A stretch of DNA of 64,000 nucleotides, from contig NZ_JAVJOJ010000001.1 of NCBI RefSeq assembly GCF_040216815.1, positions 129,229 through 193,228 on the forward strand, in the 5' to 3' direction. Made by a program: the position numbers and the translations under genes. Position 1 is the first letter of the stretch. Each line of letters begins with the position of its first letter. Shown in pieces: positions 38,492-42,136 of this stretch. Under the pieces are notes generated by a model that did no database searches, was not told where the DNA came from, and worked only from the letters and a program-made list of their open reading frames with translations. This stretch comes from Sphingopyxis sp. (GTDB taxonomy: Bacteria; Pseudomonadota; Alphaproteobacteria; Sphingomonadales; Sphingomonadaceae).

Positions 38492-38980
38492 TTAATCCCG
38501 TGCGTGTTCGCTCGACGGCTCTTCGGCCGCCGCCTTCGCCTTTTCCTTCGGCTTTTCCTTCTCGAAAATCTTGATCAGTTCCTTTTTGCGCGCCTCGGAC
38601 AAATCCTTCGCCGCCGCGGGAAACATCTCATCCTCCTCCTCGTCGATATGGTGGAGGTAACGATCCTTCATCGTGCGAAAGCGCGTCAGCCAACCGCTCG
38701 ATGAAAAATCCATCTCGTATAATTCGGTCAGGAAATCCTCGATTTCCTTATGTTCAGCAACGCTGTGCTGCGCCTCGTCGCGAAGGTCGGGATCGGCGAG
38801 CATCGTCGCATAAAGCGACATTTCCTCCGATGCTGCGTGCGCCGTCACCTCGACGCGAAACGCCTCGAACAGTTTGCGGCGTTCTTCGCTGTCGCCCTGC
38901 GTCGCGTCGATACGATCGAGCAACTCGCGGTGGCGGTCGTGATCGGCCTTCAGCCGCGCGAAAATTGTGGTTTCGGTCAT
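38492..38980 (-). CDS. Hemerythrin/HHE cation-binding domain protein
   Basis: DHDRH, AHAASEE, EH and HHIDEEE ligand pattern. Confidence 0.85.
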   Translation of the reverse strand: MTETTIFARLKADHDRHRELLDRIDATQGDSEERRKLFEAFRVEVTAHAASEEMSLYATMLADPDLRDEAQHSVAEHKEIEDFLTELYEMDFSSSGWLTRFRTMKDRYLHHIDEEEDEMFPAAAKDLSEARKKELIKIFEKEKPKEKAKAAAEEPSSEHARD

Positions 38981-39042: not shown

Positions 39043-41232
39043 TCAGGCCGCTTTCCAGTCCTCTGTGGTCGTGAATGTCGGCAGTGCGAGCGCACTCGTC
39101 GGCTGCGCTGCGGCTGCGATCAGATAGGGCGATACCCGGTGACGGGTGCATAGCCCGCCATTGCCGTCGCTCACCATCGTCTGTTCGAATTCGATCCCCT
39201 GCTGGTGTTTCGTTGATCGGCGCACCGTGGCCGTAACGAGCTGACCTTCGCCGAAATCAATCACGAAGCGGGTGCCGATCGGCACGTCCAGAATGCCTTC
39301 GATGAAGGCACCGGTAGCCGACAGGTTGCGAATGACGACGGCATAGCGATGATTGTCATGGATCGCCGTTACCTTGCGGAACATCGAAAAGCGGTCGTTG
39401 CGCTGGCGCGCGGGGCCCGAAGGCTTGATCGTCCACGACCCCGCCTCGCCATGGCGAACGACCTCGGCCGAGGGTACGGGCTTGCTGTAGATATAGCCCT
39501 GCACATGGCTGACGTTGAGTTTGCGAACGAGGGCGAGTTGGTCGAGCGATTCGATCCCTTCGGCTGTCGTTTCCATATCGAGCGCTTCCGCCAGCGCCAC
39601 GATCGCCGCGATGATCGCACCGTTGCGCGACCCCGCTTCGGTCGCGCCGCGCACGAAGCTCTGGTCGATCTTGATCTTGTCGAACGGTGCCGACTGCAGA
39701 TAGCCGAGCGACGAATAGCCGGTACCGAAATCGTCGAGCGCGAGCCGCACGCCAAGGTCCTTCAGCGCCTTGAACATCCGATTGGTTTCGGCCGTATCGC
39801 CAAGGAACACGCTTTCGGTAATCTCGAGCTCCAGCCGGTCCGGCGACAGCCCGCTCGCCGCGAGCGCCCTGGCGACGACTTTCGGCAACTCGGGATTCGC
39901 GAACTGGATCGGCGATACATTGACGGCGACGCGCATCTCGCCCGGCCAGCTTGCCGCATCCTCGCATGCCTTGAGCAACACCCATTCACCCAGCGGCCAG
40001 ATGAGGTTCGTTTCCTCGGCGATCGGAACGAATAGCGCCGGCGAGATATGGCCCCTGTCGCGGTGGGTCCAGCGAATGAGCGCCTCGACCCCCGTTACGA
40101 CATTCGATCCCGCGTTGACGACGGGTTGATAACCGATCGAAATCTCCCCGCGCGTCAGCGCATCGCGCAAATCTTCTTCGAGGACCCGGCGATCCTCGGC
40201 CGCCTGGTGCAGATCGCTCGAATAAAAAGCGAAGCGGCCGCGCCCGTTCCCCTTGGCTGCATAGAGCGCGAGGTCGGCATTGCGCACCAGATCGTCGCTG
40301 CTCTGTCCGTCGAAGGGCGCGATCGCCACGCCGACCGACGCGCCGATGATGCAGCGGCTGCCTTCGACCGAATAGGGTTGCGTCAGGCTGGCGATGATGT
40401 CCGCCGCCATTTCGCCCAATTCCCCGCGATCCTCGATATCGGGAAGGATGATCTGGAACTCGTCGCCGCCGAGGCGGCTGACCATTTCCTTGTCGCCCAC
40501 AATCTTCAGCAACCGTTCGGCAACCTGTTTGAGCAGCGCATCACCGGCGGGATGGCCCAGCGTGTCGTTGACCTGCTTGAAACGGTCGAGGTCGAGCAGC
40601 ATGATCGCGCACGGCCGCTGCTGCTGGGAAAAGGCCGCGAGCGTCGAGTCGAGCTTTTTGGAGATGTTGAAACGGTTGGCAAGACCGGTGAGCGAATCAT
40701 AAAGGGCAAGGCGCGATGCATCCTCCGCCGACCGGCGCTGCGCTGTGATGTCGATCCCGCTGCCGCGATAGCCCGCAAAGCGGCCATTGGCATCGAGCTG
40801 CGGCCGCCCCGACACCGCCCACCAACGATCGTCCCCTTCAAAGGCGCCGCGCAATGGCAGGTCGTCGAACTTCGACTGGCGCGTCATCAGAAAGGGCAGG
40901 GTGCGTTGGCGTTCGTCATGGCTGTCTGCGGGCAGGAACAGTTCGACAAAGGGCGTACCGATCAGCGACGCCGCCGGACGCCCCATCATTTGCGCCACCG
41001 CATCGGTGATATAGGTGATCCGCCCCTCGGTGTCGGTCGACCAGAACCAGCCGCGGCCGCTTTCTTCATAATTTCGAAGGAGGAGCAACGCCTCGCGCGT
41101 TTGCATTTCCGCTGCGGCATCGGTCCCGGGCTTGCGTCTGCGCGTGCCGATCAAGCCGAAAAAGCCGCGCTGGCTCTCGTCGGCGCCATGCTCGGTTGGT
41201 TCGACGCATTCGATCCGCGATGGCATGTCCAT
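39043..41232 (-). CDS. PAS-GGDEF-EAL-PilZ c-di-GMP protein
   Basis: PAS (WFWSTD), RLGGDEF, VEAL, LDDFGTGYSS, KIDQSF and AEGIE motifs; C-terminal NLSATG PilZ. Confidence 0.9.
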   Translation of the reverse strand: MDMPSRIECVEPTEHGADESQRGFFGLIGTRRRKPGTDAAAEMQTREALLLLRNYEESGRGWFWSTDTEGRITYITDAVAQMMGRPAASLIGTPFVELFLPADSHDERQRTLPFLMTRQSKFDDLPLRGAFEGDDRWWAVSGRPQLDANGRFAGYRGSGIDITAQRRSAEDASRLALYDSLTGLANRFNISKKLDSTLAAFSQQQRPCAIMLLDLDRFKQVNDTLGHPAGDALLKQVAERLLKIVGDKEMVSRLGGDEFQIILPDIEDRGELGEMAADIIASLTQPYSVEGSRCIIGASVGVAIAPFDGQSSDDLVRNADLALYAAKGNGRGRFAFYSSDLHQAAEDRRVLEEDLRDALTRGEISIGYQPVVNAGSNVVTGVEALIRWTHRDRGHISPALFVPIAEETNLIWPLGEWVLLKACEDAASWPGEMRVAVNVSPIQFANPELPKVVARALAASGLSPDRLELEITESVFLGDTAETNRMFKALKDLGVRLALDDFGTGYSSLGYLQSAPFDKIKIDQSFVRGATEAGSRNGAIIAAIVALAEALDMETTAEGIESLDQLALVRKLNVSHVQGYIYSKPVPSAEVVRHGEAGSWTIKPSGPARQRNDRFSMFRKVTAIHDNHRYAVVIRNLSATGAFIEGILDVPIGTRFVIDFGEGQLVTATVRRSTKHQQGIEFEQTMVSDGNGGLCTRHRVSPYLIAAAAQPTSALALPTFTTTEDWKAA

Positions 41233-41467
41233 CAAATTCAACTCTTTACCCTGTTCCCCACTGCGGCCGCTATGCCCGCAATCCCTTGCCAGAGAGTAAA
41301 TATCTAAGTGTTTGTCCCGAAATGCGACGAACGAATAGGTCAAGTTTTGAACGGGTCGACTGTGCCGCCGGCGACAAGGCTCGCGGGGTTGCCGGCTCGG
41401 ATCGCCGTACCGCATTAACCTTGTCCTAGAACAGAATGTTAAGGCTGTGGTCGCGATGGGAGCGCGC

Positions 41468-42136
41468 ATGGCGATGACCGTTTATCTCAACGACACTCCG
41501 CGCGCCGCCGGCAAGGGTCGCGCATCGCGGCGCCAGCTGCGGCTGCCGCTCCACGGGTCAAAGGCGACCGGCACCGAAATCGAAGCGCTGGTCCACAATC
41601 TGTCTGCGACAGGGATGCTGGTCGAAAGCGAGGCGGCTTTCGACATCGGCGAGGTGATCGAAGTCAATCTGCCGCATAGCGGGAAAACCGCCGCAAAAAT
41701 CATCTGGACGAGCGCGCGGCTTGCCGGATGCCAGTTCGAAATGCCGATCTCGCCTGCAACGCTGAGCGCGGCGCAGCTGCGCAGCGTCGTCGTCGAACCG
41801 GAGGGCCAGCCGATCGAAGCGGGCACTCCGGCTTCGATCGAGACCTTTGGCGGCCGACTTCAGCGGCTGCGCGTGGCGCGGGAATTAACGCAAGGTCAAC
41901 TGGCAACCCAGCTCGGCGTCAGCGAGCCGTCGATCTCCGCCTGGGAGCTCGACAAAGCGCGGCCCAAGGCGGGCCGCATGGAAGCGCTGTCGGAAGCACT
42001 GGGCGTCGAGGTTTCCGAACTGCTAGGTTTCGACGGTTCCGAAACGCTCGGCACGCTTGTCGCCCGCGCCAAGCAGCAAATCGCGCGCGCCGCCGGCATC
42101 GGCGTCGATGGGGTACGGATCACAATCGAAATTTAA
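41468..42136 (+). CDS. PilZ domain - XRE helix-turn-helix transcriptional regulator
   Basis: RASRR-x21-NLSATG PilZ; LTQGQLATQLGVSEPSISAWE HTH; start uncertain (41456, 41468 or 41474). Confidence 0.85.
   Translation: MAMTVYLNDTPRAAGKGRASRRQLRLPLHGSKATGTEIEALVHNLSATGMLVESEAAFDIGEVIEVNLPHSGKTAAKIIWTSARLAGCQFEMPISPATLSAAQLRSVVVEPEGQPIEAGTPASIETFGGRLQRLRVARELTQGQLATQLGVSEPSISAWELDKARPKAGRMEALSEALGVEVSELLGFDGSETLGTLVARAKQQIARAAGIGVDGVRITIEI

What the first reader, a model, noticed from the sequence alone, without database searches (positions are those of the whole stretch)
39043..42136. Divergent c-di-GMP module: PilZ-XRE transcription factor opposite a PAS-GGDEF-EAL-PilZ enzyme
The plus-strand gene fuses a canonical PilZ (RASRR-x21-NLSATG) to a classic XRE helix-turn-helix, a one-component architecture for which I know no characterised example. 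It shares a ~235-bp, relatively AT-rich promoter region with a c-di-GMP synthase/hydrolase. That enzyme's PilZ has the identical NLSATG hexapeptide at the same 21-residue spacing, hinting at duplication or PilZ-PilZ pairing. A TTAAC-N18-GTTAA inverted repeat (41415-41442) is a candidate operator. Inference: a self-contained circuit in which local c-di-GMP directly switches a DNA-binding regulator.
Basis: partly seen in the sequence, partly recalled or inferred. Interest (0 to 1): 0.75.

Follow-up and report, generated by a model that had tools for sequence, protein, structure and literature searches.

The report
PilZ-HTH regulator beside c-di-GMP enzyme
A small Sphingopyxis gene joins a sensor domain for the bacterial signal c-di-GMP to an ordinary DNA-binding domain and sits back to back with an enzyme that makes or breaks that signal. 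It belongs to an untested regulator family found only in part of one bacterial family, and the proposed "operator" looks more like a CtrA-type promoter element.

Summary
The + gene (41468-42136, 222 aa) has an intact PilZ domain (RASRR, 21 residues, NLSATG), an XRE helix-turn-helix and a conserved C-terminal tail. The - gene (39043-41232) is PAS-GGDEF-EAL-PilZ with intact catalytic motifs. The spacer is 235 bp.

The regulator belongs to a family found in 19 of 112 sampled genera of its own GTDB family and in none of 254 genera sampled across the class. It is under purifying selection, and about 80% of cluster representatives keep both c-di-GMP motifs. GGDEF genes lie within 1.5 kb in 62 of 80 loci.

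- The two PilZ domains are not close paralogs.
- The enzyme is core to the genus, while the regulator gene is accessory and sometimes absent or separated by pilus islands.
- The TTAAC-N18-GTTAA repeat is at chance level within this sequence alone. It is conserved in 17 of 17 sister loci. In sister clades a CtrA-type box (TAA-N7-TTAAC) replaces it, and that box also precedes ctrA in this genome.

Best reading: an uncharacterised c-di-GMP-responsive one-component regulator, probably expressed from a CtrA-type promoter, with unknown targets. Novelty: new variant of a known kind. Interest is moderate.

The parts
41468..42136 (+). PilZ-XRE regulator gene, 222 aa. Alternative in-frame starts are ATG 41457 and GTG 41447.
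   Evidence: ORF. Pfam PilZ + HTH_3. Public gene calls give 222 aa. dN/dS is 0.08-0.18 against orthologues.
41519..41785 (+). PilZ domain, about residues 18-106. RASRR is at 41519-41533 and NLSATG at 41597-41614. It forms a six-strand barrel plus a C-terminal helix.
   Evidence: Pfam. AF2 strands 27-90 and helix 96-106 at pLDDT above 90. Foldseek matches to the Alg44 PilZ (4rt0) and a P. aeruginosa PilZ-domain protein (4xrn), both solved with c-di-GMP. R21, S46 and G49 are invariant in 42 family members.
41858..42022 (+). XRE/Cro-C1 helix-turn-helix, residues 131-185.
   Evidence: HTH_3 at 48 bits. Foldseek matches to P22 c2, 434 Cro, C.AhdI and SinR with TMt 0.8-0.93.
42026..42133 (+). Conserved C-terminal tail: helix 194-209 followed by a VRIxIE(L/I) end. 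No Pfam family matches it.
   Evidence: Alignment A1. AF2 pLDDT 85-96. The tail is shared with an HTH-less and a PilZ-less paralogue in the same genome.
41415..41442 (.). TTAAC-N18-GTTAA, starting 53 nt (41415) and ending 26 nt (41442) upstream of the ATG. It is either a pair of CtrA-type TTAA half-sites, a -35/-10-like pair (TTAACC, 17 bp, GTTAAG), or an operator.
   Evidence: Sequence. Kept in 17 of 17 type-A loci. At chance level in the single sequence. Its 3' TTAA lies where the 3' half of the TAA-N7-TTAAC box lies in sister clades.
41284..41308 (-). Conserved block next to the enzyme gene (CCTTGC.A.A..GTAAATATCTAAG), probably the enzyme's own promoter region.
   Evidence: Conserved in all loci that carry the enzyme. 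Also kept where the regulator gene is absent and the enzyme abuts queA.
39043..41232 (-). PAS-GGDEF-EAL-PilZ enzyme, 729 aa. Domains: PAS 40732-41046, GGDEF 40237-40707, EAL 39478-40176, PilZ 39184-39408.
   Evidence: Pfam. RLGGDEF is intact and there is no RxxD I-site (GDKE). EALIR, NVS, ELEITES, DDFGTGYSS, KIKID and AEGIE are all present. Orthologues at 64-88% identity occur in all congeners checked.
38492..38980 (-). Hemerythrin-domain protein about 60 bp downstream of the enzyme, probably co-transcribed with it.
   Evidence: Pfam Hemerythrin at 61.6 bits. Synteny is conserved, and the gene is kept even where the enzyme is deleted (L036, L040, L043).

Best explanation
The + gene encodes a one-component regulator of an uncharacterised family restricted to part of the Sphingomonadaceae. 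It has three parts: an N-terminal canonical PilZ domain that binds c-di-GMP, a flexible 20-residue linker followed by an XRE helix-turn-helix that binds DNA, and a conserved C-terminal helix-strand tail that probably mediates oligomerisation. Inferred mechanism: c-di-GMP wraps the disordered RxxxR loop onto the PilZ barrel and changes dimer geometry or HTH accessibility, which switches DNA binding. The gene is most likely transcribed from a promoter governed by a CtrA-type TTAA element, tying its expression to the motile/sessile programme. In this genome it sits divergently from a core-genome PAS-GGDEF-EAL-PilZ enzyme that can set c-di-GMP levels. Domain architecture, motif and fold conservation, family distribution, the linkage to GGDEF genes and conservation of the upstream element are shown. 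Ligand binding, DNA binding, the targets (itself, the enzyme, adhesion genes) and the identity of the protein that binds the TTAA element are inferred.
For: Architecture and motifs.

Fold: PilZ barrel and XRE HTH at pLDDT above 90, matched to c-di-GMP-bound PilZ structures and to P22 c2 / 434 Cro.

Family conservation: RxxxR and [DN]xSxxG at 21-22 residue spacing in about 100 of 123 full-length cluster representatives. dN/dS is 0.08-0.18.

Linkage to c-di-GMP proteins in two unrelated arrangements:
- Divergent PAS-GGDEF-EAL-PilZ in 18 named Sphingopyxis loci.
- PAS plus a degenerate GGDEF with invariant RxxD immediately downstream in about 41 Novosphingobium/Croceicoccus loci.
- In total, 62 of 80 loci have a GGDEF within 1.5 kb, against about 14 GGDEF genes per 3.7-Mb genome.

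Upstream element:
- TAA-N7-TTAA[CT] occurs in 56 of 63 non-type-A loci against 0.0015 expected per 170 nt.
- The type-A variant is kept in 17 of 17 loci.
- The same box precedes ctrA (NF045991, 416 bits), adhesin genes, a GGDEF gene and the HTH-less paralogue in this genome.
- CtrA is reported to control c-di-GMP signalling in Sphingomonas melonis (cited in PMC8921679).
Against: There is no experimental datum for any family member. The regulator's operator was not identified, and the one conserved block near the enzyme gene persists in genomes without the regulator. The enzyme occurs in all congeners checked, but the regulator does not, so direct control of the enzyme is not implied by co-occurrence. 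About 10-20% of family clusters have lost the PilZ motifs, so ligand binding is not universal. The CtrA reading of the window's own element rests on half-sites 24 bp apart rather than a full box.
Confidence: 0.55

Rival explanations
1. The adjacency to the enzyme is incidental. The regulator gene is an accessory insert, often travelling with chaperone-usher pilus islands, between a core enzyme gene and queA. It regulates surface structures or adhesion genes rather than the enzyme.
For: The enzyme abuts queA with no regulator in G013, G019, G001 and G009, and the enzyme is present in 8 of 8 further congeners. Pilus islands lie between enzyme and regulator in G003 (an equal ~7-kb gap separates them in G017, contents not examined), or between regulator and queA with a second regulator copy in G010. 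The enzyme-proximal conserved block is independent of the regulator.
Against: This genome has no homologues of those pilus genes, yet it keeps the regulator under purifying selection. Fifteen of 18 named type-A loci keep the direct divergent pairing, and the wider family is linked to GGDEF proteins almost without exception.
Confidence: 0.3
2. The TTAAC-N18-GTTAA repeat is the regulator's own autoregulatory operator.
For: XRE proteins commonly autoregulate at palindromes. The repeat is conserved in 17 of 17 type-A loci and overlaps the likely promoter core.
Against: The half-sites lie about 23-24 bp apart, unusually far for an XRE dimer. Sister clades have a direct repeat with 11-bp period, in places three repeats, which is typical of winged-helix response regulators. 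The same box precedes ctrA and unrelated adhesin genes. The recognition helix is nearly the same in type A and type B although the site architecture differs.
Confidence: 0.25
3. The PilZ domain here does not signal c-di-GMP to DNA binding. It would serve instead as a protein-interaction or dimerisation module, or the protein would act mainly through hetero-oligomers, and the XRE domain would bind DNA constitutively.
For: Some family clusters have lost both motifs yet keep the rest of the protein. PilZ-less and HTH-less paralogues that share the tail exist.
Against: In this protein and about 80% of the family both motifs are intact at canonical spacing, with invariant Arg, Ser and Gly. The genomic linkage is specifically to c-di-GMP proteins.
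Confidence: 0.15

Closest known systems
MrkH (Klebsiella pneumoniae), the PilZ-based c-di-GMP-dependent activator of type 3 fimbriae, encoded next to the EAL phosphodiesterase MrkJ
   Same: A PilZ sensor coupled to DNA binding in one polypeptide, encoded next to a c-di-GMP phosphodiesterase-type gene. In congeners the homologous locus also carries chaperone-usher pilus genes.
   Different: MrkH has no helix-turn-helix; it binds DNA through its PilZ and a PilZ-like N-domain. Here the output is a classic XRE HTH plus a C-terminal tail. The two are unrelated lineages with no detected sequence kinship beyond PilZ.
BldD (Streptomyces), an XRE-type HTH repressor dimerised by tetrameric c-di-GMP
   Same: An XRE-like DNA-binding domain joined by a flexible linker to a separate c-di-GMP-binding domain. 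It offers a model in which the ligand controls dimer formation (PMC4151990).
   Different: BldD's ligand domain is not PilZ and sits C-terminal, whereas here a canonical PilZ sits N-terminal. A ligand-bridged dimer is only an inference for this family.
SinR/SinI (Bacillus subtilis)
   Same: An XRE HTH followed by a C-terminal oligomerisation segment. The HTH fold matches (3zkc, 1b0n). Truncated paralogues share only the tail.
   Different: There is no sequence similarity in the tail and SinR has no ligand domain. Antagonism by the truncated paralogues is speculation.
Stand-alone and fused PilZ receptors (YcgR, DgrA, PA4608, Alg44, BcsA)
   Same: The same barrel, the same two motifs and spacing, and the same disordered N-terminal loop.
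   Different: Their outputs are protein-protein contacts or enzyme activation, not a fused HTH.
PAS-GGDEF-EAL proteins (DibA, PdeR and DosP types) and the PilZ fusions with GGDEF/EAL listed by Amikam and Galperin 2006 (as cited in 10.1101/814665)
   Same: The enzyme has this domain order with intact GGDEF and EAL motifs. Its best NCBIfam similarity is to DibA (434 bits).
   Different: It scores below every equivalog cut-off, so it is not an orthologue of a named enzyme. It adds a C-terminal PilZ with QxxxR in place of RxxxR and lacks the RxxD I-site.

Membership tests
PilZ domain (PF07238), regulator | Profile match above the curated cut-off | tested here: met
   35.1 bits against 22.5.
PilZ domain (PF07238), regulator | RxxxR, then 20-30 residues, then [D/N]xSxxG | tested here: met
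   R18-A-S-R-R22, 21 residues, N44-L-S-A-T-G49. Conserved in the family.
PilZ domain (PF07238), regulator | Six-strand beta-barrel with a C-terminal helix | tested here: met
   AF2 strands 27-90 and helix 96-106. Foldseek matches to 4rt0 and 4xrn.
PilZ domain (PF07238), regulator | Binds c-di-GMP | not testable with these tools
   Needs ITC or DRaCALA with R18A/R22A and S46A controls.
XRE / Cro-C1 HTH (PF01381) | Profile match and five-helix fold | tested here: met
   48 bits against 23. TMt 0.8-0.93 to P22 c2, 434 Cro and SinR.
XRE / Cro-C1 HTH (PF01381) | Sequence-specific binding to a palindromic operator | tested here: inconclusive
   The only conserved palindrome-like element (41415-41442) has CtrA-type half-sites 24 bp apart. 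No other element dependent on the regulator was found.
MrkH-type PilZ transcription factors | N-terminal PilZ-like second barrel (PilZN2) that, together with PilZ, forms the DNA-binding surface | tested here: not met
   The model shows one barrel only, followed by an HTH.
Active diguanylate cyclase (GGDEF), enzyme | GG[DE]EF A-site | tested here: met
   RLGGDEFQI. Activity was not assayed.
Active diguanylate cyclase (GGDEF), enzyme | RxxD inhibitory site five residues upstream of the A-site | tested here: not met
   GDKE occupies that position.
Active EAL phosphodiesterase, enzyme | EALxR, N, ExxE, DDFG(T/A)GYSS, KxD and EG(V/I)E motifs | tested here: met
   EALIR, NVS, ELEITES, DDFGTGYSS, KIKID and AEGIE read from the translation. 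EAL profile at 232 bits.
PilZ domain, enzyme C-terminus | RxxxR motif | tested here: not met
   QRNDR, conserved in 14 orthologues. NLSxTG is present. Pfam gives 24.4 bits against 22.5.
CtrA box | TTAA-N7-TTAA(C) full site | tested here: not met
   The window spacer has two TTAA cores 24 bp apart and no full site. The full site is met in 56 of 63 sister-clade loci and before ctrA in this genome.

The most novel reading that the evidence does not exclude
The family may be a modular, SinR/SinI-like system. The full-length PilZ-HTH-tail protein, an HTH-less PilZ-tail paralogue (G000 C5, kept at full length in 8 Sphingopyxis genomes) and a PilZ-less HTH-tail paralogue (G000 C9) would assemble through the shared C-terminal tail into mixed oligomers. 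c-di-GMP sensing and DNA binding could then be combined or titrated in trans. The whole set would be switched on by CtrA, making a previously undescribed link between the alphaproteobacterial cell-cycle regulator and c-di-GMP-dependent transcription.
Probability: 0.15. Interest if true: 0.75.

Novelty: new variant of a known kind. Interest (0 to 1): 0.55.

Why it matters
[quoted passage not shown] A direct PilZ-to-HTH fusion would be the simplest possible one-component reader of c-di-GMP. This family offers hundreds of natural variants, including versions that have lost the motifs, the HTH or the PilZ domain, which makes it a good system for working out how PilZ transmits ligand binding to an output domain. 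Its conserved CtrA-type upstream box and its near-obligate pairing with GGDEF proteins suggest a defined node between the cell-cycle/motility programme and c-di-GMP signalling in sphingomonads, which are environmentally important degraders and biofilm formers. All of this is inference until one member is tested.

Tried and rejected
- Recent duplication or pairing of the two PilZ domains: rejected. They share 25% identity over 51 residues, and each has closer paralogues elsewhere in the genome.
- Sigma-70 consensus scan of the spacer in the window and in L041: no hit at the tool's threshold.
- Rfam scan of 40900-41700 for a riboswitch or leader RNA: only a chance-level match (Xoo8, 12 bits, E 0.6).
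- The search for related loci with the 42-sequence alignment failed because no stretch was conserved enough. It worked with 12 sequences.
- The enzyme-proximal conserved block as the regulator's operator: rejected, because it persists in genomes that lack the regulator gene.
- The GTTAnnTAAC palindrome, found before the partner gene in Novosphingobium, as a regulator operator in this genome: it is absent from G000 (0 sites against about 11 expected).
- A pilus-regulator role in this genome: no homologues of the congeners' chaperone-usher genes are present.
- The flagellin promoter as a positive control for the CtrA box: it is sigma-28-like and carries no box, so it is uninformative.
- Toxin-antitoxin or prophage-repressor reading of the XRE domain: the NCBIfam hits cover only the HTH and fall far below cut-offs. 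The neighbours are housekeeping genes (queA, PPIase, coaD).
Full report
**Observation.**
The window lies in a Sphingopyxis genome, judging by the names of near-identical homologues. The + strand ORF at 41447-42136 scores Pfam PilZ (35.1 bits, cut-off 22.5) and HTH_3 (48 bits, cut-off 23). Public gene calls and a GGGAG ribosome-binding site favour ATG 41468, which gives 222 aa. The sequence reads R18-A-S-R-R22, then 21 residues, then N44-L-S-A-T-G49. The - strand gene is PAS_4-GGDEF-EAL-PilZ. Its conserved start is ATG 41232 (MDMPSR), so the spacer is 235 bp. Spacer GC is 0.557 against 0.653 for the window. The inverted repeat TTAAC-N18-GTTAA is at 41415-41442.

**Regulator structure and family.**
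An AlphaFold2 model built on a 42-sequence alignment has mean pLDDT 82 and shows:
- a disordered N-terminus (residues 1-23) that carries RxxxR;
- a six-strand barrel (27-90) plus a helix (96-106);
- a disordered linker (about residues 107-126; pLDDT below 50 at 114-120);
- a five-helix HTH (127-185);
- a further confident helix (194-209) followed by a short tail.

Foldseek matches the first half to c-di-GMP-bound PilZ domains (Alg44 4rt0; 4xrn). It matches the second half to P22 c2, 434 Cro, C.AhdI, SinR and DdrO. No solved chain convincingly covers both halves: only a HEPD dioxygenase aligned over the full length, at rmsd 15 Å and TM 0.26.

An exhaustive HMMER search of 1.84 billion cluster representatives gave 782 hits at E <= 1e-10. 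More than 120 of the top 150 are full-length proteins of about 220 aa. Roughly 100 of these 123 keep both motifs at 21-22 residue spacing, and a minority have lost both. R21, S46, G49 and the WE of the recognition helix are invariant in the 42-sequence alignment, as is a C-terminal ...IA.A.G....VRI.IE(L) tail that matches no Pfam family.

Named genomes that hold the family are Sphingopyxis, Novosphingobium, Croceicoccus, Caenibius and other Erythrobacteraceae. In unnamed species-representative genomes the full-length protein occurs in 19 of 112 genera of the window's GTDB family. It occurs in none of the other genera among 254 sampled across the class. Within the window's clade dN/dS is 0.08-0.18, like the neighbouring enzyme at 0.07-0.16, so the gene is functional.

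**Literature.**
Full-text searches found no characterised PilZ-HTH transcription factor. A 2025 review lists MrkH as the only PilZ-based transcription factor and notes that it lacks a canonical HTH (PMC12564702). [quoted passage not shown]

**The enzyme.**
The GGDEF A-site (RLGGDEF) and all EAL signature motifs are intact. The RxxD I-site is absent, with GDKE in its place. The C-terminal PilZ scores just above threshold and has QRNDR rather than RxxxR, conserved in 14 orthologues. It is therefore a plausibly bifunctional or phosphodiesterase-dominant enzyme with a non-canonical PilZ that may replace I-site feedback; that last point is inference. It falls below every NCBIfam equivalog cut-off. 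A hemerythrin gene follows about 60 bp downstream in all loci.

**Are the two PilZ domains related?**
They align at 25% identity over 51 residues, centred on the motif. Within the genome the regulator's PilZ is closer to four other loci (46%, 39%, 38%, 35%), and the enzyme's PilZ is closer to two others. NLSATG and NISATG are the commonest forms of the motif across the family. The duplication and pairing hint is not supported.

**Is the pair conserved?**
Partly. In the window's clade (type A) 15 of 18 named loci have the divergent pairing. In three the enzyme has been deleted while hemerythrin and the regulator remain. In the sister clade (type B) 4 of 14 are paired.

In the congeners examined that lack the direct pairing, the enzyme lies about 7 kb from the regulator. 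In G003 this gap holds part of a chaperone-usher pilus cluster; in G017 the gap was not examined. In G010 and four other genomes a second regulator copy lies about 7-8 kb beyond the first. In G010, the one examined, the intervening DNA is a pilus island lying between the regulator and queA.

The enzyme is present at 64-84% identity in 8 of 8 further congeners. These include genomes with no close regulator, where the enzyme directly abuts queA. So the enzyme is core and the regulator gene is accessory at this site. The window's genome has no homologues of those pilus genes.

**Family-wide link to c-di-GMP proteins.**
In the Novosphingobium/Croceicoccus clade the regulator is followed, 200-330 bp downstream on the same strand, by a PAS-GGDEF protein of about 310 aa (Pfam on L081). 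Across 80 named loci, 62 have a GGDEF domain within 1.5 kb. The window's genome has only about 14 GGDEF sites in 3.7 Mb, so roughly 1-2% would be expected by chance, although related loci are not independent.

The downstream partner has a degenerate and variable A-site (GSERF, GGERF, GGGSL and others) but an invariant RxxD five residues upstream. That is the signature of an I-site c-di-GMP receptor of the PopA/PelD kind rather than a cyclase. Two different gene arrangements thus tie the family to c-di-GMP proteins.

**The repeat.**
In the single sequence it is unremarkable: 4 inverted repeats with 5-bp arms in the spacer against 6.0 in shuffles. Across 17 named type-A loci, TTAA(C/T)-N19-TTAA is kept at a fixed 51-53 nt from the ATG while part of the spacer varies.

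In type B and the Novosphingobium clade the same position holds a direct repeat, [C/G]TAAC-N6-TTAAC(C), that is TAA-N7-TTAAC with an 11-bp period. It occurs in 56 of 63 loci against 0.0015 expected per 170 nt, and some loci show three repeats. This is the architecture of the CtrA box (TTAA-N7-TTAA plus half-sites; PMC8921679).

The window's genome has only 20 sites matching nTAA-N7-TTAAC. They include:
- a perfect site before ctrA itself (NCBIfam CtrA, 416 bits, cut-off 350);
- sites before DUF4402, DUF11 and cadherin-like surface proteins;
- a site before a membrane GGDEF protein;
- a site before an HTH-less paralogue of the regulator.

CtrA is reported to control c-di-GMP signalling, EPS and motility in Sphingomonas melonis (Francez-Charlot 2015, as cited in PMC8921679). 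The 3' TTAA of the window's repeat sits where the 3' half-site of the box sits in sister clades, about 29-30 nt before the ATG (my reading of the upstream sequences listed). In type A the pair also reads as TTAACC, 17 bp, GTTAAT, a weak -35/-10 pair that the consensus scanner does not call.

I therefore rate a CtrA-type or promoter element at about 0.55-0.6 and an XRE operator at about 0.25. The conserved block nearest the enzyme (41284-41308) is kept in genomes without the regulator, so it is not the regulator's operator. No Rfam family matches the spacer.

**Modular paralogues.**
The genome also encodes a 167-aa PilZ-tail protein without the HTH (C5:145821-146321) and a protein of about 136 aa with the HTH and tail but no PilZ (C9). 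Their tails match the regulator's at 60% over 25 aa and 49% over 39 aa. The HTH-less form is orthologous to a full-length paralogue clade of other Sphingopyxis and is kept at full length in 8 genomes at 69-80% identity. A shared oligomerisation tail, by analogy with SinR/SinI, is a hypothesis only.

**Verdict.**
The architecture is real and belongs to a sizeable, lineage-restricted, uncharacterised family. The most likely function is a c-di-GMP-switched transcription regulator under CtrA-type control (confidence about 0.55). Its targets are unknown, and direct control of the neighbouring enzyme is possible but not indicated by co-occurrence. [quoted passage not shown]

Noticed in passing
G000 contig C5:145821-146321 (-), outside the window: A 167-aa paralogue with an intact PilZ (RKLSL.../NISGTG) and the family's C-terminal tail but no HTH. 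A CTAAC-N6-GTTAAC box ends about 15-18 nt before its ATG. It is kept at full length in 8 Sphingopyxis genomes and is orthologous to a full-length PilZ-XRE paralogue clade elsewhere.
   Followed up: partly
G000 contig C9:~652460-652868 (+), outside the window: A paralogue of about 136 aa with the XRE HTH and the same C-terminal tail but no PilZ domain.
   Followed up: partly
G000 contig C9:232815-232831, outside the window: A perfect TTAA-N7-TTAAC site (TTAAATCAAAATTAAC) lies in front of the ctrA gene (NCBIfam CtrA, 416 bits). This fits CtrA autoregulation in this genome.
   Followed up: partly
window 38492-38980 (-): A hemerythrin-domain protein directly downstream of the PAS-GGDEF-EAL-PilZ gene, syntenic in all congeners. 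It is kept next to the regulator even where the enzyme gene has been deleted (L036, L040, L043). It is a possible O2, NO or iron sensor partner of the enzyme.
   Followed up: no
L081:6943-7878 and about 40 other Novosphingobium/Croceicoccus loci: The conserved downstream partner of the regulator family is a PAS plus degenerate GGDEF protein (GSERF, GGERF, GGGSL and others) with an invariant RxxD I-site. That predicts a c-di-GMP receptor rather than a cyclase. Its AT-rich upstream spacer carries GTTAnnTAAC-N5-TAAC.
   Followed up: partly
L113 (G010:C1:3139000-3152000) and L020:1-6000 (G003): Non-classical chaperone-usher pilus islands (usher-like, PapD_N chaperone, SCPU pilin). In G003 the island lies between the enzyme and the regulator. 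In G010 it lies between the regulator and queA and carries a second, divergent PilZ-XRE copy. This genome has no such island.
   Followed up: yes
window 41309-41325 and the aligned positions in L035, L037, L013: A small palindrome beside the enzyme-proximal block changes sequence between clades but stays palindromic (GTTTTCCGGAAAC, CTTTGCCCCAAAG, GTTTGTTCCAAAAC). It is imperfect in the window (GTTTGTCCCGAAAT).
   Followed up: no
whole genome G000: The 10-mer pattern GTTAnnTAAC does not occur at all, against about 11 expected from base composition.
   Followed up: no
G000 contig C7:523958 (-), outside the window: A membrane-anchored GGDEF protein (323 aa, RMGGDEF) is preceded by ATAA-N7-TTAAC, which makes a second c-di-GMP gene with a CtrA-type box.
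   Followed up: no
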